Virus record (IMG/VR): IMGVR_UViG_2737471817_000011
Coordinates: 1-12,149 of that record
Length of the DNA stretch: 12,149 nt
Source: a virus
Taxonomy: Duplodnaviria > Heunggongvirae > Uroviricota > Caudoviricetes
Reading direction: 5' to 3' (one strand)
Below are positions 1,331-12,149 of this stretch, piece after piece. The notes beneath the pieces are model-generated. The model was not told the DNA's origin. It saw only the letters and a list, made by a program, of their open reading frames with translations, and ran no database searches. Every line of letters begins with the position of its first letter. The stretch's first letter is position 1. Both the position numbers and the translations under genes were made by a program.

Positions 1331-1345
1331 GCTTTTTTATACTAA
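1331..1345. other. attL: attL core: 15-bp lambda-type overlap sequence GCTTTTTTATACTAA
   Basis: Exact 15-mer read at 1331-1345. Left flank (ccgttgaagcct) is bacterial B-arm-like; right flank (gttggcattataaaaaagcattgcttatcaatttgttgcaacgaacaggtcactatcagtcaaaat) matches the lambda P' arm as I recall it. Confidence 0.9.
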
Positions 1346-1426
1346 GTTGGCATTATAAAAAAGCATTGCTTATCAATTTGTTGCAACGAACAGGTCACTA
1401 TCAGTCAAAATAAAATCATTATTTGA
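1346..1426. promoter_or_regulatory. P' arm of attL with tandem Int arm-type sites (aggtcactat / cagtcaaaat, 1392-1411)
   Basis: Arm-type consensus-like decamers read directly at 1392-1401 and 1402-1411, followed by AT-rich aaaatcattatttg. The 3' end of int overlaps this arm, as in lambda. Confidence 0.7.
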
Positions 1427-2489
1427 TTTCAATTTTGTCCCACTCCCTGCCTCTGTCATCACGATACTGTGATGCCATGGTGTCCGACTTATGCCCGAGA
1501 AGATGTTGAGCAAACTTATCGCTTATCTGCTTCTCATAGAGTCTTGCAGACAAACTGCGCAACTCGTGAAAGGTAGGCGGATCCCCTTCGAAGGAAAGAC
1601 CTGATGCTTTTCGTGCGCGCATAAAATACCTTGATACTGTGCCGGATGAAAGCGGTTCACGACGAGTAGATGCAATTATGGTTTCTCCGCCAAGAATCTC
1701 TTTGCATTTATCAAGTGTTTCCTTCATTGATATCCCGAGAGCATCAACATGCAATGTTGTAGGTATGGCAATTTTTACGCCCGTTTTGCTTTGCTCGACA
1801 TAAAGATATCCATCTACGATATCAGACCACTTCATTTCGCATAAATCACCAACTCGTTGCCCGGTAACAACAGCCAGTTCCATTGCAAGTCTGAGCCAAC
1901 ATGGTGATGATTCTGCTGCTTGATAAATTTTCAGGTATTCGTCAGCTGTAAGTCTTGATCTCCTTACCTCTGATTTTGCTGCGCGAGTGGCAGCGACCGG
2001 GTTTGTTGTTATATGGCCTTCAGCTATAGCCTCTCGGAATGCATCGCTCAGTGTTGATCTGATTAACTTGGCTGATGCCGCCTTGCCCTCGTCAATGTAT
2101 CCATTGAGCATTGCCGCAATTTCTTTTGTGGTGATGTCTTCAAGTGGAGCATCAGGCAGACCCCTCCTTATTGCTTTAATTTTGCTCATGTAATTTATGA
2201 GTGTCTTCTGCTTGATTCCTCTGCTGGCGAGTATTTTTTCGTAGCGATCAAGCCATGAATGTAACGTAACAGAATTATCACTGTTGATTCTTGCTGTCAG
2301 AGGCTTGTGTTTGTGTCCTGAGAATAACTCAATGTTTGCCTGTATTGCTTCAGTAATTGCTATCCTCCTGTCTCTGCCTAATCCGAACTCTTTACCCGTC
2401 CTTGGGTCCCTGTAGCAGTAATATCCATTGTTTCTTAAATAAAGGTTAGGGGGTAAATCCCGGCGCTCATGACTTCGCCTTCTTCCCAT
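1419..2489 (-). CDS. int: Lambda-type tyrosine integrase Int
   Basis: 356-aa ORF starting MGRRRSHERRDLPPNLY and ending EWDKIEIK, near-identical to lambda Int as I recall it. Catalytic region contains HELRSL and GHKSDTMASQY (tyrosine recombinase R/H/Y signature). Sits next to the att core. Confidence 0.96.
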   Translation of the reverse strand: MGRRRSHERRDLPPNLYLRNNGYYCYRDPRTGKEFGLGRDRRIAITEAIQANIELFSGHKHKPLTARINSDNSVTLHSWLDRYEKILASRGIKQKTLINYMSKIKAIRRGLPDAPLEDITTKEIAAMLNGYIDEGKAASAKLIRSTLSDAFREAIAEGHITTNPVAATRAAKSEVRRSRLTADEYLKIYQAAESSPCWLRLAMELAVVTGQRVGDLCEMKWSDIVDGYLYVEQSKTGVKIAIPTTLHVDALGISMKETLDKCKEILGGETIIASTRREPLSSGTVSRYFMRARKASGLSFEGDPPTFHELRSLSARLYEKQISDKFAQHLLGHKSDTMASQYRDDRGREWDKIEIK

Positions 2490-2685
2490 TTCTGATCCTC
2501 TTCAAAAGGCTACCTGTTACTGGTCGATTTAAGTCAACCTTTACCGCTGATTCGTGGAACAGATACTCTCTTCCATCCTTAACCGGAGGAGGGAATATCC
2601 TGCATTCGCGCACCCATCGACGAACTGTTTCAAGGCTTCTTGGGCGTCGCTGGCGAGCGTTCCACTCCTGAAGTGTCAAGTACAT
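2467..2685 (-). CDS. xis: Excisionase Xis (lambda-type)
   Basis: 72-aa ORF MYLTLQEWNARQRRPRSLETVRRWVRECRIFPPPVKDGREYLFHESAVKVDL, matching lambda Xis from memory. Its 3' end overlaps the int start by 23 bp, as in lambda. Confidence 0.94.
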   Translation of the reverse strand: MYLTLQEWNARQRRPRSLETVRRWVRECRIFPPPVKDGREYLFHESAVKVDLNRPVTGSLLKRIRNGKKAKS

Positions 2686-3557: not shown

Positions 3558-3852
3558 GGTTAACCTCCTGCGGAGTAGCCTTTACAAGCACTGGTGCAAA
3601 TCCATCTTCATTAAGGTTATGAATATAGACTTCTGTTCTCCTGCGCTCTTCAACGTTTAATATTGTTTCTGGATCATAAACCCATACTTTCATTCGACTA
3701 TTCCATGAAGAAATCGCTTCAGATCTAGTTCGTTTTTCTGGTCCTTGGGCACCACATTTGCATGACACATAGCGCATTTTCCCTCTGATACTGAATGAGT
3801 ATCCGATGTTAAGCACAGTGGAACCACAGAATGGGCAGCGATATAGATTCAT
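3550..3852 (-). CDS. Lar-family zinc-ribbon protein (putative restriction-alleviation / modification-enhancement protein)
   Basis: 100-aa ORF MNLYRCPFCGSTVLNIGYSFSIRGKMRYVSCKCGAQGPEK with a CPFCG...C-x-CG four-cysteine zinc ribbon near the N-terminus, as in Lar (RalR-like) proteins. AGGTGGA Shine-Dalgarno upstream. ATGA start/stop overlap with the upstream 254-aa gene. Confidence 0.6.
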   Translation of the reverse strand: MNLYRCPFCGSTVLNIGYSFSIRGKMRYVSCKCGAQGPEKRTRSEAISSWNSRMKVWVYDPETILNVEERRRTEVYIHNLNEDGFAPVLVKATPQEVNRG

Positions 3853-4610
3853 AAATCATCCACCTTAGGCGCAGCTGAGACAGCAACATTCCAGAACTCA
3901 GAAAACATATTGTATGCACCAGATAGATTGGAAGTGGCATACCCTCCAAGCTCACTTCTAATCTGAACGGCTCTCATCATTTCCGGCGTTAACTCCTTCG
4001 GCACCATAACCCAACCATCCGGAGTTACCGGAGAGTTGCCATTTATATCGAAGTTTGGCTCTGCGTCCTGAACCAGGAGGATGTAACCATTCTTGGCAGT
4101 ATCAAGTTCTAACGCCTCGGTGACGGTGCCGAAATAGCGATTGCCTAAATCAGCATCACAAGTGCTTACATCAATGGAAACTTCCATGCCTTCGATTAAT
4201 TCTGGCAAGTTGTAAGTTTGGCTTACATGTTGGCTACCCTGAAGCATGGCGGCGCGGCAGGCGTTCCAGCCTCTCACCTCTGCAATAGCGGCAACAGCAT
4301 CAACCGCGTACATTTTAAGAGGGTTAGGCATTGGTTTTTCTTCAGGTACTACTGGCACTGGAGGGGCGGCATAAACAGGAATAACGTCCGATTGCTCTTT
4401 ATTGCTTTCATCCGTTAAAGCCCAGAATAATTTTCCAGCCGGATGTTTGAAAATATAAGCAACTGGTTCTGCTTCCAGCGATGCCAGCGCCAACTTGAAC
4501 GCCTGAAGCTCAATGGCACTGTTGGTATCCAGTCCAAACGGTAATTCATCACGATTGGCTTCGTATTCAGCGATAGTTTGCTTCAGCCATTCTTTGGTTA
4601 GTTCAGCCAT
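3849..4610 (-). CDS. Hypothetical 253-aa phage early-left accessory protein (positional analogue of lambda ea22; family not recognised)
   Basis: Track ORF 3849-4661; I place the start at the internal ATG 4608-4610 (MAELTKEWLKQTIAEYEANRDELPFG...), which is preceded by AAGGGG. Acidic, proline-rich linker (PVYAAPPVPVVPEEKPMPNP) between two predicted domains. Translationally coupled to the Lar-like gene. Confidence 0.6.
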   Translation of the reverse strand: MAELTKEWLKQTIAEYEANRDELPFGLDTNSAIELQAFKLALASLEAEPVAYIFKHPAGKLFWALTDESNKEQSDVIPVYAAPPVPVVPEEKPMPNPLKMYAVDAVAAIAEVRGWNACRAAMLQGSQHVSQTYNLPELIEGMEVSIDVSTCDADLGNRYFGTVTEALELDTAKNGYILLVQDAEPNFDINGNSPVTPDGWVMVPKELTPEMMRAVQIRSELGGYATSNLSGAYNMFSEFWNVAVSAAPKVDDL

Positions 4611-4614
4611 ATCC

Positions 4615-4824
4615 CTAATTCCCCTTGGTGCTGACTTTGACGCCAACCTTGCGAATCTCATCGGCGCATCTGTTCACGATACTCCGGTGAAACTCACAAA
4701 AAATTTTCGCCGACTGCGGCCCTAATGGGTGAACATCGTGCGCACGCGGCAGTACAACCTCCCGCGCCTCCATGTCAGCAATCCGCTTGTCTTTGGCTTC
4801 CAGCTCATTCAGCAGCGCCAGCAA
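4615..4824 (-). CDS. Questionable small ORF at the deletion junction (TTG start in track; possible 5'-truncated remnant of an early-left gene)
   Basis: Translation LLNELEAKDKRIADMEAREVVLPRAHDVHPLGPQSAKIFCEFHRSIVNRCADEIRKVGVKVSTKGN. No ATG with a Shine-Dalgarno at its 5' end; an in-frame stop lies only 8 codons upstream. It ends 4 bp before the 254-aa gene start. Confidence 0.25.
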   Translation of the reverse strand: MLALLNELEAKDKRIADMEAREVVLPRAHDVHPLGPQSAKIFCEFHRSIVNRCADEIRKVGVKVSTKGN

Positions 4825-5747
4825 TTCAGCAGATTGATACTGAGATATCTAATCTGCAGAAGCTTGGTAAGGTGGCTGATAACGAGACTATTTCAAAACT
4901 TCAGTCATATCGTGATGAGCTTGTTCGCAATGCTGGTCCTGATGGTCCGGTCAATCTGGATTTGAAGCAATTAAGCGATCTGCGCAGCCAGTTCAGAATG
5001 GACGTGAAGGGTGAGCGACCAGTGTTACCAAACCGTTCCGATGCTGCCATTCAGCGAGTTTACAAGGCGATGACCGACGATATCAATGGTGCCATTGGTC
5101 AGAATCTTGGCAATGATACTCTTCGTAAATATCAGCAGGCCAATGCCGTCTACGCTGACGAAGCGGCGAAACTAAAGAATACCAGGCTGAAGAATGTTCT
5201 CATGAAAGGCGACCTGACTCCGGAAGTTGTCAACAACATGCTATTCAGCAAGAACAAATCGGAAATTAAGACTCTGTATAACTCAGTTGGTCGTGTTGGC
5301 AGGGCGCAAATGCGCAATGGCATCATTGGAAAGGCGATGGAGAAATCAGGTGGTTCCCCTGACCAGTTCCTTCGGCAGCTTAATATCCTGCAAAACCATA
5401 CTGGCATCACATTTAAGGGGCAGGACTCTGCTTATCTGAAAGGATTAAAAAACTACCTGCAATCCACGCAGCAGGCTGCAAAAGCGGCAGTAACAACACC
5501 CACAGGGCAGCAAACTATCCCGTTCATTATTGGGTATGGGACGGCAATGAACCCGGCGACAACTGGCGCAGCAGTAAGCTATGGACTTCTTACGCGCGTC
5601 TATGAGAGCGAGCCATTCAGAAATGCAATGCTCCGAATGGCAAACACCCCGCGCGGATCAACAGCGTTTGAGAAAGCCATGCAGCAGGCACAAAAGGCAA
5701 TTAACGCTATGACGCAGGGGGCTAAGTCTGATGCGTTGTCAGAATAG
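4725..5747 (+). pseudogene. Probable 3' fragment of a P22-like internal virion / DNA-ejection protein gene (gp16-like by position); the first ~35 codons of the track ORF are probably not coding
   Basis: Long + strand ORF ending 90 bp before a convergent mnt-like gene, the position gene 16 occupies relative to mnt in P22. The C-terminal region is Ala/Gln-rich (QQAAKAAVTTPTGQQ...MQQAQKAINAMTQGAK). The N-terminal 4725-4830 is GC-rich, low-complexity and overlaps a minus-strand ORF. Confidence 0.4.
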
Positions 5748-5836: not shown

Positions 5837-6097
5837 TTAGTTGCTGTCTTTTTTATATAGCTCCTTGAGCGTATCAAAGACAATTTTCTTAACCATATCA
5901 GATTGTTGTTCTGCCATACGCTCTGCATCGTCAATGTAAACTGATGCAGAGCTTTGTTTATCCAATGATTCTTCAATCGCTGCAATTATCTCTGAGTTCA
6001 GCGACCTGTTATTCATCTTCGCACGCTGCTTAATTTTCGCGTGGAGTTCATGCGGAAGTCTCAAGTGAAACTGCGCCTCGTCGTATTTGCTGTACAT
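5837..6097 (-). CDS. mnt: Mnt-like ribbon-helix-helix repressor (immI-type)
   Basis: From the internal ATG at 6095-6097 (AAGGA Shine-Dalgarno upstream): MYSKYDEAQFHLRLPHELHAKIKQRAKMNNRSLNSEIIAAIEESL...DAERMAEQQSDMVKKIVFDTLKELYKKDSN. Closely parallels P22 Mnt as I recall it (FNFRMPMEV...GRSMNSELLQIVQDAL...DAERLADEQSELVKKMVFDTLKDLYKK). Confidence 0.8.
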   Translation of the reverse strand: MYSKYDEAQFHLRLPHELHAKIKQRAKMNNRSLNSEIIAAIEESLDKQSSASVYIDDAERMAEQQSDMVKKIVFDTLKELYKKDSN

Positions 6098-6170
6098 CCT
6101 TGATGCCTCACCAGTTGGGTGGAATGGCATCGTAACCTACTGGATAAATACTCAACAGTACCATTTCGGT

Positions 6171-6193: not shown

Positions 6194-6228
6194 CATATCA
6201 TTCGTCTGGAGCAATGAAATGTCAGATA

Positions 6229-6729
6229 TCACCTACTCAACAGATGGTCAGCAACCATGTTTGCTGCCTTATAAGCTATAGCAGCTTCATCAATGGTGTT
6301 GAATCTCCCAAGGGTTATGTTTTTACCTGAGACATTTATCTGAGCTTGCCATTGATTTCTGGCTTGACAGAAAGTTACCCCCTTGATCCCAGCATTGCTA
6401 TTTCGAGGTCCGACATTTAATGCATTTACGACTCTGCTGACATCCCTAAGGTTTGAGATTGCGTTATTTCTTCTGTTTCTATCAATGTGGTCAATCTCTT
6501 GTTTGGGCCATTCGCCATATACATACAGCCAGGCAAGTCTATGTGCAAAATATCTTACGCCATCAATATTAATTGCGTTATATCCATAAGAAATTGTGCC
6601 AGCAACTTTCCCAACAGCACCTCTGGCGCTTAATTTCTTTTTCCAAGTGAAAATTCCTGTTTCTTTATTGTAATCGAGAACCTCCATAAGGCGCTCCCGA
6701 GTTACTACCTCGTGACGTCTCTTACTCAT
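6229..6729 (-). CDS. HNH endonuclease with C-terminal AP2-type DNA-binding domain (homing-endonuclease-like)
   Basis: From the ATG at 6727-6729 (GGAG Shine-Dalgarno upstream): [14 protein letters not shown]... HNH_3-type motif [36 protein letters not shown], then AP2-like [43 protein letters not shown]. Confidence 0.8.
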
Positions 6730-6751
6730 TATTTTCTCCGGAATGTTTATT

Positions 6752-8644
6752 ATGCCAGAACAATTATACAACGTTGTTGTTTCACAACCAAGTCAGTTAT
6801 TTACTTTAGCTCGCTCGTTTAAAGCAAATGCCAATGGCAAAATTTATATCGGAAAAATTGACACTGACCCTGTAAATCCTGAAAACCAGATTCAGGTTTA
6901 TGTGGAAAACGAAGACGGCTCTCACGTTCCTGTATCGCAACCAATCATCATTAACGCTGCTGGTTACCCGGTATATAACGGACAGATTTCCAAGTTCGTA
7001 ACCGCGCAAGGCTATTCTATGGCTGTGTACGATGCATACGGCTCTCAGGAGTATTACTTCTCGAGAGTTAAAAATGACACGCGGTCAGTCACATCATTCC
7101 TGAGTAGCAGGGAATTATGGAAGAAGTACTTGAAGGAATTTGGAATCGTTCTAGTTGATGGTAGCTTTGAGGAAGGGGCAACAGTTAGCGCACCAAATCA
7201 GGCTGTATGGTATAAGTTTGATGGAAAGTGCTATGCAAGAGTAACCGGAGATAGCGTTATCGTTGCATCTGGCTCATCGCCAGACTCAGGCTGGACATCT
7301 GACATTGGCTCACGCATTAAAGCGTGGCTCCCTAATACATCACCAAATACAGATGTATCTACGCGTTTGCAGGCATTGCTTACAGTCGGGAAAGGTGAGA
7401 TTAAAATCCCTGACGGGCGCTATACGGTAAACACCGTCCTTATTACTAACTTTAGCGATTCATCATTCCCATCACTGGGGGCTGGCAGTCCACGTTATAA
7501 TTTTAGCGGTTCATCGATTAACAATACTATTTTCACGGTTTCTGATAATTACTTGCTGAATCACACTGGTGGGGTGAGCGGAACTGTAGTTCATGGAACA
7601 AACACTTATATGAGAACCGGTGATTGTCAGATAATTGGAACTGGAGCAACAAGTAGCGGTGGTTTCAAGTTTAGTTTTTGCACATTTATTGAAGTCGAAA
7701 ATATACGTGCAGCATTGCTTGGAATTCCAGTGTATTTTGCAAACTGCATATATAACTATGTGCGAAACATCAGAGTTGATAATTCTCTGTACGGCATATT
7801 TACAGAAAGTTCAGATCCATCATTCCCAACAAATTCAACATTTGTTGATGATTCAACATTTACTTACTGCTCAAGATATGCTGTAGAGGCGACCATTGGT
7901 CTCACCTTTAACATGACCAATTGCAGTATTGAGAAAAATGGTGTACAAGGTGATGTAAATACTGGTGGGATTTATTTAAAGGTTACTGAGCCGTTAAGTG
8001 TTATAAATATCACTGGAACGTATTTTGAAGCAAACAAAGGAAATGCTGACATAACTGTCCTTAACTCTGGCGGCGGCACCATAGTCGTAAATTTAATAGG
8101 TTGCACGTTTAACAGAGGTAACTCAGATGGGGGTTATACATTAACAAACTTCAAATCACTGTCTCATGCAGGGGTTGGTAAGATTATACTAAATCTACAA
8201 GGGTGTCATTTCTTCTCAAATACATCGTGGGGATTTACTCCATCGGCTGATAAACCTTTTATTACACCTGACACATGGCTTACTGTTAATGGTCTGGATA
8301 CATGTACATTCAGTGAAACAACAAGTCTACCAGACACTATTCAATCAAGCTCATCCAGTATTAGCGTCAAGGTTGCTGCGGATGGTACAAAAATCAGCGG
8401 CCCATCCTACATCACAACGTCAAAAACAGGAACTGGAGTTTATTCAGTAACAAGTAATTATCCATTAGGTACATCGCCTGTTGGCAATGATTATTCCGTA
8501 ATGGCTATATCCAACATCGATGGTTTTGTTGTTACAAGCTCGGCAAATCAAAGTGCAACTTCCTTTAATGTAAGAACTAAAAGTTCTTCCGGTTCCGCTG
8601 CAGACACAGCCTTTAGTGTGACAATTACAAGACGAATTGGGTGA
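6752..8644 (+). CDS. Tailspike protein: P22-type N-terminal head-binding domain plus a distinct beta-helix-like receptor-binding domain
   Basis: Residues ~10-105 ([72 protein letters not shown]...AVYDAYGSQ) parallel the P22 gp9 head-binding domain as I recall it. The rest is Ser/Thr/Asn/Gly-rich with repeated N-x-(S/T) and Cys-containing short repeats, typical of right-handed beta-helix depolymerases. Alternative start at 6743. Confidence 0.85.
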
Positions 8645-8649
8645 TTAAG

Positions 8650-8679
8650 GATGGCGCATATGCGCCATCTTTTTATTTA
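8650..8679. terminator. Bidirectional intrinsic terminator between convergent tailspike and gtrC genes
   Basis: Perfect 20-bp palindrome GATGGCGCATATGCGCCATC (8650-8669) followed on the + strand by TTTTTATTTA. The gtrC stop codon (8673-8675) lies in the T-run. Confidence 0.65.
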
Positions 8680-9947
8680 TTGATTACGCAATCATAAAAG
8701 GCTGATACCTGACCTAAATTACCAAAAAACCAATACTCTCTGTTGTTAATATATCTATATGTATATGGCGTTGAGATTCTATTAACTTTAATTCCATTTT
8801 TACACGACCCATTAAACCTTGCAGATTCAATTGTTGATTCTCTTAATGAATCTTGTGCTGAATATGCAACAGCTGCCTTAAGAGCAAGTAATGATGATGG
8901 AACCGACAGTAACACGATGGATAGCAAAATTATTATTGATGCCTTGCTTTGTTGTGATATCACCAAAATAGTGGAGCGAGTTATAACTGCTGTCATTATG
9001 CACCATGAGAACATGAATGCCCTTGCTTCTGTGTATGGTGACATAATCATTGAACCATCAACAAGAACAGCGGCAATAATACAGAGCCATATTTTTACAC
9101 TCGCTTTATTGGTATAAATTAAATATCCAATTGAAATAACGGATATAAACATTAAAAACCATGATGTAGTTACGAAAACAGTGATAACATCAATAATTCT
9201 TGCCGTGATGTAATCAATGCTCATTCCATTGTAATTTAAAGCATGTTGATAAAATTCCTTTCTCCGTACTGTTGATGGAGCTAGAACAATGATAATCCAT
9301 CCTGCCAACACAAAAATCATAGGAATAATGCGCTTTATTGATAGATTATCATTAATAAAACAAAATAATAACATCGTTATAAGTAAAGCAACTGGTACAT
9401 TTTCAAAACTAAGTCCAGCCAAGAGACATGCAAATAAATACACGCAATAATATTTTATTTTTATTTTTTCAATTAAATTGTAATTTATATACACAAGCAA
9501 TACCGATAGCGTTATTACCATCGGTTGCAGGTATCCAGCATTTGCTGTTTTCCAGAAAAAAACCTCAAATCCAGGCCAGAACGAATATATTGCAATAATT
9601 GAAACGCATGTCCCAAACATAGCGTTATTGCTATCATCTGAGAAAATCCTGAAAATAATATAAGATAGGGCCAAAAAAGAAATAATTGATACGACTATAA
9701 AAAATGTTGGCGGCATGCTCAAGTTAAATATTGCAAGTTGCTCACCAAGCCTTGCGTTCCACATTTCAATTTGTCTTGCTGATCTTTCAACTGAATACAT
9801 GATTCTTGTAATCAAGTCGTGATTAATGAATCTTTTGGTTAATGCAAAATCCTCACCAGCCAATGGGAATATTGAGAATGTTATTGCATAAACAGATGTA
9901 AGAAAGCCTGCAACTATGTAGATGCAGCGATTTATGTTATTTACCAC
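8673..9947 (-). CDS. gtrC: GtrC-type serotype-specific O-antigen glucosyltransferase (polytopic membrane protein)
   Basis: 424-aa, strongly hydrophobic ORF with many predicted transmembrane segments, immediately downstream of gtrA-gtrB and overlapping the gtrB stop by 11 bp. GTG start 5 nt after AGGAGG. Very AT-rich (only 11 G/C in 9421-9480). Confidence 0.75.
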
Positions 9948-10863
9948 ATTCCCCTCCTTTCAGAATATAGCGCGGACGATGCTTAACTTCTGTATAAATT
10001 CTGCCAATATATTCACCAAGAACGCCGATTCCAATCAATTGAATGCCACCGAGGAATAGTATTGATACAAGAAGTGACGGATACCCAGGAACGTTGTTGC
10101 CAAACATCAGCTTGTCAATAATCATCCACGAGCCATACATAAATGACAGGCTGGCGACAAAAAGGCCAATGTATGTCCACATTCTCAGTGGTAAGGTAGA
10201 GAAGCTGGTGATTCCTTCGAGTGCCAGATTCCATAACTTCCACCCGTTGAATTTAGAATCACCTGCGACGCGTTCTGCCCTGGCATACTCAACAACATCT
10301 GTGCGTCCGCCAACCCAGCTCAGCACGCCCTTCATAAATAGGTTGCGTTCCGGCATGAGTTTTATGTTCTCCACGACCTCGCGGGACATCAGACGGAAGT
10401 CACCAACGTTTTCTTCAATCTTCGGATGACTAATTTTGTTGTGCAGTTTATAAAACCACTCAGCGGTTTTTCGCTTTAATCTTCCATCAGTAGATCGATC
10501 TGATCGTTTTGCAAGCACCATATCAGCACCTGCCTGCCACTTTTCAATAAGATGAGGAATAACCTCAATCGGGTCTTGCAGGTCAACATCAATTGGAATT
10601 ACAGCATCTCCGGTTGCATGGTCTAACCCTGCAAACAATGCTGGTTCTTTACCAAAGTTTCGTGTAAATGACAGCGGAACAACTAGAGGATCTGAAACGG
10701 ACAGAGCGTTAATGATTGACTCCGTAGCGTCTTTGCTACCATCATTTATAAAAACAATTTCCACTTCATATGGCTTCAACTCTTCGAATTCACGTACCGT
10801 TTTATAAAAAATTGGTATCGCTTCCTCTTCATTGAAGACAGGAACGACCAGAGATATCTTCAT
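9937..10863 (-). CDS. gtrB: GtrB bactoprenol (undecaprenyl-phosphate) glucosyltransferase, GT2 family
   Basis: 308-aa [53 protein letters not shown]... (GT2 N-terminal fold, DxD-type region PIDVDLQDP) with two C-terminal transmembrane helices, the classic GtrB/YfdH architecture. 4-bp ATGA overlap with gtrA. Confidence 0.92.
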
Positions 10864-11222
10864 TTCGCATCCCTAAAGACAATGAACTTTGAATAGACGA
10901 AACCGCACACCAAGCTGATGGCGGAGAAGGTGACAAGAGTGACAATTGGAGGAAGTGCACATCTATCAGCAGCCCATCCAACAGTAGCACTCAGTGTTCC
11001 CATGAACCCGACATATAACATGTAACGCATCGTTGTAGTTGATGCTTTGAATGTGAATTTTGCATTCGCGAAGAAGCTAAAACTCACAGCCACAACAAAA
11101 CCTGCGAAGTTTGCAAGAGCCTGATTTGTATGCGCGGCATAGATACATACACCAAAAACCACCCAGTGTATAAGTGTGTTCAGCACACCAATCGAGGTGT
11201 ACTTTGCAAATAGCTTTAACAT
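10860..11222 (-). CDS. gtrA: GtrA flippase-family small membrane protein
   Basis: 120-aa [62 protein letters not shown]... with four predicted transmembrane helices. Recognised from memory as GtrA (YfdG-like). First gene of the gtr operon, as in P22 and Shigella serotype-converting phages. Confidence 0.92.
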
Positions 11223-11386
11223 TTATTTAATCAATGAGTTCATGAAAGGCATGAAGTCTATCATCCAAGTCTCAATCGATCGATACTTGCTATGGTTGAT
11301 GAGACAAAACTGAGACACACAAAGCTTTGCACTGAATTGCAAGGCTTTGTTCTTCTCTGGAGTGCGACAAGTTTGATGACAAAAAA

Positions 11387-11421
11387 TTAGCGCAAGAGGA
11401 CAAAAAATCACCTTGCGCTAA
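11387..11421. promoter_or_regulatory. sib-like stem-loop (candidate RNase III retroregulation site) on the phage side of the P arm
   Basis: Stem TTAGCGCAAG (11387-11396) / CTTGCGCTAA (11412-11421) around a 15-nt loop. It sits where lambda sib sits relative to attP, on the far side of the P arm from int. Confidence 0.45.
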
Positions 11422-11567
11422 TGCTCTGTTACAGGTCACTAATACTATCTAAGTAGTTGATTCATAGTGACTGCATATGTTGCGTTTTGCAGTATTATAC
11501 AGTCTATTTTTTAAGCCAAATGTATTGTAAGTGATTGCTATTAATGATTTTTGCTGTTTCTGGTTCA
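11422..11567. promoter_or_regulatory. P arm of attR with Int arm-type sites (acaggtcactaat at 11431-11443; catagtgactgcatat at 11460-11475)
   Basis: The distal P arm (ctctgttacaggtcactaatactatctaagtagttgattcatagtgactgcatatgtt) matches lambda from memory. The core-proximal ~60 bp (aagccaaatgtattgtaagtgattgctattaatgatttttgctgtttctggttcagc) appears to differ from lambda. Confidence 0.65.
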
Positions 11568-11582
11568 GCTTTTTTATACTAA
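11568..11582. other. attR: attR core: second copy of the 15-bp core GCTTTTTTATACTAA, followed by bacterial B' arm (cttgagcg)
   Basis: Exact 15-mer at 11568-11582, a direct repeat of 1331-1345. Downstream cttgagcgaaacggg matches the attB right arm as I recall it. Confidence 0.9.
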
Positions 11583-11672: not shown

Positions 11673-12149
11673 TTAACTAAACATCGCAGTAATCGAGGCG
11701 CTTGCCAGAGAGTGGAAATGAACGTTAAACCCGACCATCGCGCCGCTGGCACCTTCATCGACATCAATACGTTCTATATCCAGCGCGTGAACGGTAAAAA
11801 TGTAGCGATGAGTTTCGCCTTTCGGCGGTGCTGCGCCATCGTACCCGGTTTTACCAAAGTCGGTACGCGTCTGCAAAACGCCGTCTGGCATTGCTACCAG
11901 ACCAGAGCCAAACCCTTGCGGTAATACGCGGGTATCAGCGGGTAAGTTAACAACTACCCAGTGCCACCAGCCGGAGCCGGTTGGCGCATCCGGGTCATAG
12001 CAGGTGACGACAAAACTTTTCGTTCCCGCAGGAACATCATCCCACGCCAGATGCGGTGAAATATTATCGCCATCGTAACCCATGCCGTTAAAGACATGAC
12101 GATGCGGCAACTTATCGCCATCGCGCAGATCATTACTGATGAGTTTCAT
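11673..12149 (-). CDS. ybhB: YbhB, PEBP (phosphatidylethanolamine-binding protein / RKIP) family protein
   Basis: 158-aa ORF MKLISNDLRDGDKLPHRHVFNGMGYDGDNISPHLAWDDVPAGTKSFVVTCYDPDAPTGSGWWHW..., PEBP signature DPDAP...GxxHW. Start codon is the last 3 bases of the window. Known neighbour of attB-lambda on the bio side. Confidence 0.88.
   Translation of the reverse strand: MKLISNDLRDGDKLPHRHVFNGMGYDGDNISPHLAWDDVPAGTKSFVVTCYDPDAPTGSGWWHWVVVNLPADTRVLPQGFGSGLVAMPDGVLQTRTDFGKTGYDGAAPPKGETHRYIFTVHALDIERIDVDEGASGAMVGFNVHFHSLASASITAMFS

What the first reader, a model, noticed from the sequence alone, without database searches (positions are those of the whole stretch)
6752..8644. Apparently intact orphan tailspike retained in a prophage missing all other virion genes
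A 1.9-kb uninterrupted ORF with a P22-type head-binding domain and a long beta-helix-like C-terminal domain has survived a deletion that removed capsid, portal and terminase. Keeping a 631-aa reading frame intact in a decayed prophage suggests recent decay or selection. Its receptor-binding domain probably defines an O-antigen specificity paired with the adjacent gtr module.
Basis: partly seen in the sequence, partly recalled or inferred. Interest (0 to 1): 0.6.

Follow-up and report, generated by a model that had tools for sequence, protein, structure and literature searches.

The report
Leftover phage tailspike gene in E. coli
This is a genuine, still-intact tailspike gene left in a 10-kb remnant of a P22-like prophage at the lambda attachment site of E. 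coli; its sugar-binding domain is a rare, uncharacterised type, but keeping a tailspike next to O-antigen-modifying genes in a decayed prophage turns out to be common and already described.

Summary

The remnant is one young clone: copies are >=99.97% identical, the useless gp16 fragment is equally undamaged, and the window branch shows 18 synonymous to 2 non-synonymous changes. Recent decay plus linkage to gtrABC explains the intact frame, so selection need not be invoked.

The receptor-binding domain is rare (16 clusters among 5.8 billion proteins). Its nearest characterised relatives are the Sf11/Sf101 tailspikes at 26% identity. Relatives at 67-76% identity sit in apparently complete prophages.

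Orphan tailspikes are ordinary: 3 of 10 sampled E. coli loci are such remnants, and Scholl 2012 published one.

New detail: an HNH homing-endonuclease cassette has been inserted into the gene's 5' end, as in the viable phage Kapi1.

The parts
1331..1345 (+). attL core (lambda-type 15-bp core GCTTTTTTATACTAA), left boundary of the prophage remnant next to ybhC
   Evidence: Exact match, one of two in the window; 0.04 expected by chance
1419..2489 (-). lambda-type integrase, intact (356 aa)
   Evidence: Pfam Phage_integrase 1.7e-40 and Arm-DNA-bind_1 2e-32
2467..2685 (-). excisionase, intact (72 aa)
   Evidence: ORF; PF07825 Exc on the identical gene in L004
2725..4661 (-). surviving early-left genes: small PHROG-only ORFs, an ASCH-like gene, a Lar-like gene and a DUF551/Ea22-like gene
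   Evidence: PHROG hits; annotation of homologous stretches in other E. coli genomes
4820..4823 (.). deletion junction: crossover at an AGCA microhomology inside an imperfect ~19-nt patch; about 30 kb of prophage lost
   Evidence: Three-way alignment of the left parent (L059), the window and the right parent (L002 gp16); homology limits
4815..5747 (+). C-terminal fragment of ejection protein gp16 (residues 356-665 of 665). It lies within a chimeric 340-codon ORF (4725-5747) and is non-functional but free of stops and gaps
   Evidence: phrog_770 positions 332-666 of 668, E=1.5e-122; tblastn 98% identity with no gaps
5837..6130 (-). Mnt-type repressor (Arc/ribbon-helix-helix domain plus Mnt C-terminal domain), intact
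   Evidence: Pfam Arc 1.1e-14 and Repressor_Mnt 3.3e-14
6205..6231 (+). orphaned ancestral tailspike ribosome-binding site and first five codons (GGAGCAATGAA ATG TCA GAT ATC ACC)
   Evidence: Identical to the start of the tailspike gene in L002 and aligned with the starts in L001, L007 and L013
6229..6729 (-). freestanding HNH-AP2 homing-type endonuclease gene, a ~530-nt insertion into the 5' end of the tailspike gene
   Evidence: Pfam HNH_3 2.5e-16 and AP2; insertion polymorphism; 98.7% identical cassette in phage Kapi1 and in 15 E. coli genomes
6752..7069 (+). tailspike head-binding domain (residues 1-106), with a new start and N-terminus (MPEQLY) and a recoded first ~50 nt supplied along with the HNH cassette
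   Evidence: PF09008 E=3.4e-55; PDB Sf6/P22 N-domains; alignment
7070..7393 (+). tailspike neck/linker module (residues ~107-214), with sequence similarity to tailspikes of many unrelated phage genera
   Evidence: tblastn hits to residues 9-130 of the RBD query at 31-47% identity in Escherichia, Klebsiella and Pectobacterium phages; AF2 secondary structure
7394..8251 (+). right-handed parallel beta-helix (residues ~215-500), with near-invariant N361, E394, E426, N428, D433 and R455 as the putative active site
8252..8644 (+). tailspike C-terminal beta-rich domain (residues ~501-630) and stop codon
   Evidence: AF2 strands 533-629; aligned end to end with Sf11 gp13
8647..8672 (+). GC-rich hairpin between the convergent tailspike and gtrC genes (terminator-like)
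   Evidence: 11-bp stem followed by a T-run
8673..9947 (-). gtrC, the serotype-specific transferase, of DUF6056 / GT_STM0557_N type (424 aa), 33% GC
   Evidence: PF19528 3.3e-27; 79% and 70% identical to the GtrC paired with the related RBDs in L058 and L013
9937..10863 (-). gtrB (bactoprenol glucosyltransferase, GT2)
   Evidence: PF00535 7.7e-31
10860..11222 (-). gtrA (flippase-like)
   Evidence: PF04138 3.4e-13
11568..11582 (+). attR core, right boundary next to ybhB
   Evidence: Exact 15-bp repeat of the core at 1331-1345

Best explanation
The ORF is a bona fide tailspike gene (gene 9 type) of a P22-like (Lederbergvirus) temperate phage that integrated at the lambda attachment site of E. 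coli (strain GCA_000797955.1). In the ancestral phage, the N-terminal domain docked the trimer onto the tail hub. The beta-helix bound, and probably cleaved, the host O-antigen; conserved E394, E426 and D433 are the likely catalytic carboxylates. The convergent gtrABC operon then modified that O-antigen in lysogens to block superinfection. A single illegitimate-recombination deletion of about 30 kb, at a 4-nt microhomology, removed everything between an Ea22-like early gene and codon ~356 of gene 16. What remains is int, xis, some early genes, half of gene 16, mnt, an HNH cassette, the tailspike and gtrABC. The tailspike frame is intact because the deletion is recent and because the gene lies next to the host-beneficial gtr operon. 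It has lost its late promoter and antiterminator, so it is most likely silent or only weakly expressed. Shown: gene identity, fold, junction, clonality and absence of decay. Inferred: catalytic residues, O-antigen as the target, lack of expression, and hitchhiking rather than selection.
For: Identity and fold. Genomic position identical to the gene 9 position in complete P22-like prophages (coat, gp4, gp10, gp26, gp14, gp7, gp20, gp16, immI, tailspike, gtrCBA, att). Relatives of the RBD at 76% and 67% identity sit in such prophages, so the RBD type belongs to working phages. The junction is one crossover with no IS element. att cores are present at both ends. Recency: the window is 100% identical to L004 and L006, and L005 differs by 2 mismatches and 1 gap over 12.1 kb. 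All contigs carrying the exact protein show the same remnant. The functionless gp16 fragment has no stop or gap and is 98% identical to an intact copy. RBD dN/dS is 0.13-0.20 against 0.25 between two intact-prophage copies, and the window branch has 18 synonymous to 2 non-synonymous changes. No sigma-70-like plus-strand promoter lies between the junction and the start codon, and the native RBS is displaced 520 nt upstream by the HNH insertion. The HNH arrangement is compatible with function because the viable phage Kapi1 has it. Conserved acidic residues lie in the confidently modelled helix turns. There are precedents for remnant tailspikes that are functional and target the host's O-antigen, and for tailspike/gtr interplay (PMC3303846; PMC4413052).
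Against: Neither expression nor enzymatic activity was tested. The promoter scan is a crude consensus search and found fewer sites than in shuffles, so a weak or non-canonical promoter, or read-through from the Mnt-controlled region, cannot be excluded. Low dN/dS and an intact frame are also what ongoing selection would produce. All 8 other independent remnants inspected also keep a full-length tailspike, which hitchhiking explains but does not prove. The host strain's O-antigen type is unknown, so the RBD's target is inferred only from family behaviour and the gtr linkage.
Confidence: 0.78

Rival explanations
1. The tailspike is kept by selection as a domesticated host gene. For example, it might work with gtrABC as an O-antigen editing pair: it trims unmodified chains and so sets O-antigen length and composition, as the BTP1 tailspike does in Salmonella. 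Alternatively, it might be kept as a reservoir from which incoming P22-like phages acquire a matching receptor-binding domain.
For: Every remnant inspected keeps a full-length tailspike beside an O-antigen modification gene, despite different junctions and IS hits in neighbouring virion genes (L001, L002, L003, L047, L052, L053, L054). In L003 the deletion ends 5 nt before the tailspike start. dN/dS is low, with 18 synonymous to 2 non-synonymous changes on the window branch. In Salmonella D23580 the prophage tailspike shortens the host's O-antigen unless gtrC is present (PMC4413052).
Against: No promoter was detected, and the late promoter and antiterminator are deleted. The useless gp16 fragment is just as intact. 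The remnant is a single young clone, so there has been no time for selection to be visible. My sample was conditioned on the head-binding domain being present, so remnants that lost the tailspike were never counted. In BTP1 the effect comes from an inducible, complete prophage.
Confidence: 0.14
2. The gene is functionally dead despite its open frame, because the HNH cassette separated it from its native ribosome-binding site and start codon and replaced its first residues.
For: The ancestral RBS and ATG are stranded at 6205-6231. The new start at 6752 has only a weak GGA-type Shine-Dalgarno, and it lies 22 nt from a divergent gene.
Against: The identical arrangement (98.7% over 626 nt, same 22-nt gap) is present in the isolated, plaque-forming temperate phage Kapi1, whose only head-binding protein is the gene downstream of the HNH. 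It is also present in 15 complete E. coli genomes with different RBDs.
Confidence: 0.03
3. The receptor-binding domain targets a surface polysaccharide other than the O-antigen (capsule, colanic acid or ECA), so it is not functionally paired with gtrABC.
Against: The nearest characterised homologue, Sf11 gp13, uses the O-antigen (PMC12724387). The two other relatives keep a homologous DUF6056 GtrC that diverges roughly in step with the RBD (RBD/GtrC 90/79% and 67/70%). P22-like prophage tailspike types are reported to correlate with host O-antigen (Casjens and Grose 2016, as cited in PMC10408124).
Confidence: 0.1

Closest known systems
P22 gp9 / Sf6 gp14 / HK620 gp9 tailspikes (Lederbergvirus)
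   Same: They share an N-terminal head-binding domain (83-85% identical to Sf6 gp14 over residues 4-106), a right-handed beta-helix body and a C-terminal beta domain. The gene position is also the same: last late gene, downstream of gene 16 and the immI region, convergent with O-antigen modification genes beside the att site.
   Different: No sequence similarity is detectable beyond residue ~107. The conserved acidic residues lie in different sequence motifs (IEKNG.. and YFEAN..D). An HNH cassette has replaced the first five codons.
Tailspike of Shigella siphophage Sf11 (gp13, PDB 9occ) and of the serotype-converting podophage Sf101
   Same: These are the nearest characterised homologues of the receptor-binding domain: E=5e-24 and 26% identity over ~415 residues to the very C-terminus, including the E-x-N-G-x-x-G-D..TGG and YFEAN motifs. 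Sf11 uses the O-antigen as its receptor (PMC12724387).
   Different: With only 26% identity, specificity cannot be transferred. Sf11 gp13 attaches through an N-terminal helical bundle to a siphovirus distal tail protein rather than through a head-binding domain. Only residues 4-59 are modelled in 9occ, so this RBD type has no experimental structure.
Tailspike plus O-acetylase retained in the P22-like prophage remnant of E. coli O104:H4 (Scholl et al. 2012, PMC3303846)
   Same: It has the same situation: a deletion removed much of a P22-like prophage, yet the full-length tailspike and the adjacent O-antigen modification gene remain. That tailspike was shown to be functional and specific for the host's own O-antigen.
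   Different: It has a different RBD, a different modification gene (an acetylase rather than gtrABC) and a different integration site. No activity data exist for the present protein.
Escherichia phage vB_EcoP_Kapi1 tailspike locus (MT813197, Kapi1_066/067)
   Same: It has the same HNH-AP2 cassette inserted at the same point of the tailspike 5' end (98.7% identical), the same new N-terminus and the same 22-nt divergent spacing.
   Different: Kapi1 is a complete, viable phage integrated at argW. Its tailspike is 791 aa with an unrelated RBD, it retains arc and ant, and it has no gtrABC.
BTP1 prophage tailspike / gtrC pair of Salmonella Typhimurium D23580 (PMC4413052)
   Same: It has a convergent tailspike and gtrC. 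GtrC protects the lysogen's O-antigen from the prophage's own tailspike, which is the model for how the two genes here relate.
   Different: BTP1 is a complete prophage that induces spontaneously. Its tailspike is a P22-type endorhamnosidase, and its GtrC belongs to a different family.

Membership tests
P22-like (Lederbergvirus) tailspike, gene 9 type | N-terminal head-binding domain (PF09008) that docks to the gp4/gp10 tail hub | tested here: met
   Pfam E=3.4e-55 over residues 1-106; phmmer E=1.9e-53 to Sf6 gp14 and ~1e-40 to the P22 gp9 N-domains
P22-like (Lederbergvirus) tailspike, gene 9 type | Right-handed parallel beta-helix receptor-binding body | tested here: met
   [not shown]
P22-like (Lederbergvirus) tailspike, gene 9 type | Gene position: downstream of ejection gene 16 and the immI (mnt) region, next to the O-antigen modification genes and att | tested here: met
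   Window gene order matches the complete prophages L007-L013
P22-like (Lederbergvirus) tailspike, gene 9 type | Homotrimer incorporated into virions | not testable with these tools
   Only a monomer was modelled, and no virion genes remain in this element
P22-like (Lederbergvirus) tailspike, gene 9 type | Endoglycosidase (or other depolymerase) activity on the receptor polysaccharide | not testable with these tools
   Near-invariant E394, E426 and D433 in the helix turns are suggestive only; hydrolase and lyase cannot be told apart
Sf11 gp13 / Sf101-type receptor-binding domain family | Full-length sequence homology of the C-terminal ~415 residues | tested here: met
   E=4.8e-24, aligned to the last residue; 102 representative clusters at E<=1e-10
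Sf11 gp13 / Sf101-type receptor-binding domain family | Recognition of a Shigella flexneri-type O-antigen | not tested
   26% identity is too low to infer specificity, and the host's O-antigen cluster is not in the window
gtrABC O-antigen glucosylation operon | GtrA (PF04138), GtrB (GT2, PF00535) and a variable serotype-specific GtrC, co-oriented beside the phage att site | tested here: met
   Pfam hits for all three, with GtrC = PF19528 DUF6056/GT_STM0557_N; all frames intact
Freestanding HNH homing endonuclease cassette | HNH nuclease domain plus a DNA-binding module (AP2) | tested here: met
   HNH_3 2.5e-16 and AP2 5e-6; phrog_99 1.2e-63
Freestanding HNH homing endonuclease cassette | Presence/absence polymorphism at a fixed site in a conserved target gene, with an altered flanking sequence | tested here: met
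   The insert is absent from L001, L002, L007 and L013 at the same point; the downstream ~50 nt are recoded; the cassette is found in front of different RBDs
Freestanding HNH homing endonuclease cassette | Site-specific cleavage of the cassette-free allele | not testable with these tools
   Needs an enzyme assay
Lambda-type site-specific integration module | Lambda-like Int and Xis, with the 15-bp core repeated at both ends between ybhC and ybhB | tested here: met

The most novel reading that the evidence does not exclude
Tailspike genes may be preferentially preserved, together with the adjacent O-antigen modification genes, when P22-like prophages decay in E. coli. All nine independent remnants seen here keep a full-length tailspike. 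That could be because the pair benefits the host, for instance if a low level of tailspike trims unmodified O-antigen so that the modified form dominates, or if the remnant donates a host-matched receptor-binding domain to incoming phages. On this reading the present gene would be a domesticated enzyme rather than debris.
Probability: 0.12. Interest if true: 0.6.

Novelty: new member of a known kind. Interest (0 to 1): 0.27.

Why it matters
There are three practical points. First, the receptor-binding domain is a rare tailspike type with no experimental structure and no assigned specificity. As Scholl et al. showed for O104, such remnant-encoded tailspikes can be turned directly into strain-specific binding or killing reagents, and they usually report the O-antigen of the strain that carries them. 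Second, the rough base rate obtained here matters for prophage annotation: about 22% of complete E. coli genomes carry a head-binding tailspike, and about 3 in 10 of those loci are remnants without capsid genes. An intact tailspike is therefore not evidence of a live prophage. Third, the HNH cassette inside the 5' end of tailspike genes, shared with the viable phage Kapi1, is a small, apparently undescribed example of a homing element using the most conserved stretch of an otherwise hypervariable gene as its target. None of this changes current understanding of phage or host biology.

Tried and rejected
1. An exact look-up of the 633-aa version (start at 6743) found nothing. The recorded protein starts at 6752.

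2. I searched 5,426 complete E. coli genomes for the RBD at megablast level. Nothing was found beyond the head-binding domain, so the strain's lineage is not among the complete genomes. The draft genome GCA_000797955.1 is the source.

3. A literature search for the assembly accessions JUCL/JUCM gave no paper, so the strain's serotype stays unknown.

4. I considered that the 90%-identical RBD (P0002, on a 73-kb contig) might come from an N4-like lytic phage. This was rejected: the contig is chromosomal, with the tailspike followed by an acyltransferase, a DUF6056 gtrC and gtrB.

5. The PHROG top label 'colanic acid degradation' was rejected as uninformative, because the match covers only the head-binding domain.

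6. A test of selection within the remnant is impossible, because the copies are essentially identical.

7. The Dam/OxyR phase-variation layout upstream of gtrA is not evident, with only one GATC.

8. Satellite or mobilisable-element reading: int, xis and both att cores are intact, but no packaging or replication functions remain. I rate this below 3% and did not pursue it.

Full report
OBSERVATION. The window holds an uninterrupted plus-strand ORF from 6743/6752 to 8644. The start at 6752 gives 630 aa, identical to a protein that NCBI records in E. coli as a 'phage head-binding domain-containing protein' (P0001). None of 2000 base shuffles of the stretch is stop-free. Residues 1-106 match Pfam Head_binding at E=3.4e-55. 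They also match the solved N-terminal domains of Sf6 gp14 (E=1.9e-53) and P22 gp9 (about 1e-40).

SETTING. The flanks are E. coli ybhC (1-1284) and ybhB (11673-12149), which bracket the lambda attachment site. Perfect copies of the 15-bp lambda core GCTTTTTTATACTAA lie at 1331-1345 and 11568-11582, against 0.04 expected by chance. They delimit a 10.25-kb element. Reading left to right, it contains:
- a lambda-type integrase and excisionase;
- a few early-left genes ending in a DUF551/Ea22-like gene (3849-4661);
- the C-terminal half of ejection protein gp16;
- an Mnt repressor;
- an HNH-AP2 endonuclease gene on the minus strand;
- the tailspike;
- a hairpin;
- gtrC (DUF6056 type), gtrB and gtrA on the minus strand.

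This is the P22 prophage gene order with the middle missing. Complete relatives show coat, gp4, gp10, gp26, gp14, gp7, gp20, gp16, the immI genes, the tailspike and gtrCBA in exactly this arrangement.

THE DELETION. Homology to intact early-left regions runs up to about window 4823. Homology to gene 16 starts at 4806. A three-way alignment places a single crossover at AGCA (4820-4823), inside an imperfect 19-nt patch, with no IS element. gp16 residues 356-665 of 665 survive, 98% identical to an intact copy, with no gap or stop. The '340-aa ORF' at 4725-5747 is therefore a chimera of antisense early-gene sequence and the gp16 tail. About 30 kb was lost in one illegitimate-recombination event, judging from the ~39-40 kb genomes of this phage type such as Kapi1. 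The loss covers the rest of the early region, immunity, replication and lysis genes, terminase, portal, scaffold, coat, tail hub, needle and the other ejection genes.

HOW RARE IS THE RECEPTOR-BINDING DOMAIN. A word-indexed search of 5.8 billion clustered proteins found 16 clusters. An exhaustive phmmer search over 1.84 billion representatives found 280 at E<=1e-3 and 102 at E<=1e-10. No complete E. coli genome among 5,426 holds it at megablast level. In the phage collection the best full-length matches are 25-27% identical, including the tailspikes of Shigella phages Sf11 and Sf101. The only PDB sequence match is Sf11 gp13 (9occ, E=5e-24). In that entry only residues 4-59 are modelled (PMC12724387), so no experimental structure of this domain type exists. 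The same domain occurs behind other virion adaptors (PF18668 or none) and in Hafnia. This is the usual modular exchange of tailspike domains.

IS IT A WORKING TYPE OF TAILSPIKE. Yes. Relatives with 76% (P0003) and 67% (P0008) identical domains sit in P22-like prophages with complete late regions, at the lambda site or at argW.

PAIRING WITH GTR. The relatives compare as follows:
- L058: RBD 90% identical, paired with a DUF6056 GtrC 79% identical to the window's.
- L013: RBD 67% identical, paired with a DUF6056 GtrC 70% identical.
- L007: RBD 76% identical, paired with a GtrC of an unrelated family (Glucos_trans_II).

The pairing is therefore a tendency rather than a rule. Biologically it fits the known logic that the gtr operon modifies the O-antigen that the phage's own tailspike recognises (PMC4413052).

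RECENT DECAY OR SELECTION. The window is 100% identical over all 12,149 bases to a contig of E. coli GCA_000797955.1. Two other assemblies carry the same remnant at 100% and 99.975% identity. Every contig carrying the exact protein has the same junction. The element shows no decay anywhere, including the gp16 fragment, which cannot be functional. RBD dN/dS against relatives is 0.13-0.20, no higher than the 0.25 between two intact-prophage copies. Changes assignable to the window's own branch are 18 synonymous to 2 non-synonymous. Nearly all its history was therefore spent under constraint, meaning in a live phage. No sigma-70-like plus-strand promoter lies between the junction and the start codon, and the late promoter and antiterminator are gone. 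The simplest reading is a recent deletion, with the tailspike surviving as the immediate neighbour of the useful gtr operon. Selection is not excluded but is not needed.

A NEW DETAIL. The HNH-AP2 gene (6229-6729, minus strand) is an insertion of about 530 nt into the 5' end of the tailspike gene. The ancestral ribosome-binding site and first five codons (ATG TCA GAT ATC ACC) are still at 6205-6231, exactly as in a cassette-free allele. The gene resumes at codon 7 behind a new start (MPEQLY), with its first ~50 nt synonymously recoded. The same cassette, 98.7% identical and with the same 22-nt spacing, precedes the tailspike of the isolated temperate phage Kapi1 and of prophages in 15 complete genomes with different receptor-binding domains. 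It therefore does not inactivate the gene. It behaves like a homing element that targets the conserved head-binding coding sequence. The Kapi1 preprint does not mention it.

VERDICT. This is a real and correctly read feature: a P22-like tailspike with a rare, uncharacterised receptor-binding domain, stranded by one recent deletion next to its gtrABC partner. It is a new member of a known kind in a known and frequent situation, so interest is modest.

Noticed in passing
window 6205-6751: The HNH-AP2 endonuclease gene is a ~530-nt insertion after codon 5 of the ancestral tailspike gene. The old RBS and start are stranded at 6205-6231. The tailspike restarts at 6752 with a new N-terminus and a synonymously recoded first ~50 nt. 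The same cassette is present in the viable phage Kapi1 and in 15 of 5,426 E. coli genomes, in front of different receptor-binding domains.
   Followed up: yes
window 1331-1345 and 11568-11582: Perfect lambda att core repeats, together with intact lambda-like Int and Xis, suggest the 10.25-kb remnant may still be able to excise.
   Followed up: partly
window 4725-5747: The deletion created a chimeric 340-codon ORF: about 30 codons of antisense Ea22-like sequence fused in frame to gp16 residues 356-665. Gene callers report it as a gene (PF26808 Phage_P22_gp16 in L005 and L006).
   Followed up: yes
[not shown]
   Followed up: partly
L056 3198-3782; L054 10656-11189; L049 11353-11862: Other HNH/NUMOD4 endonuclease genes sit inside or between late genes of P22-like prophages: within gp10, between gp10 and gp26, and a different HNH gene upstream of a tailspike. 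Homing endonucleases seem to be frequent passengers in these late operons.
   Followed up: no
window 5837-6130: An Mnt-type repressor is retained although its usual targets, arc and ant, are absent. In this phage lineage (as in L002), mnt lies directly upstream of the tailspike start. This raises the question of whether the Mnt-controlled promoter region ever drives the tailspike.
   Followed up: no
window 8673-9947: gtrC has a much lower GC content (33%) than gtrB and gtrA (44%), the tailspike (41%) and the host flanks (53%). This is consistent with gtrC being the most recently exchanged cassette.
   Followed up: no
window 11223-11567: The region upstream of gtrA contains a single GATC (1.5 expected), so the four-GATC Dam/OxyR phase-variation layout known from some Salmonella gtr operons is not apparent.
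   Followed up: partly
L058 187-5142: The closest relative of the receptor-binding domain (90%) carries a different N-terminal adaptor (PF18668). It is followed by an extra acyltransferase gene inserted between the tailspike and a DUF6056 gtrC, in a chromosomal contig near yedD/yedE.
   Followed up: partly
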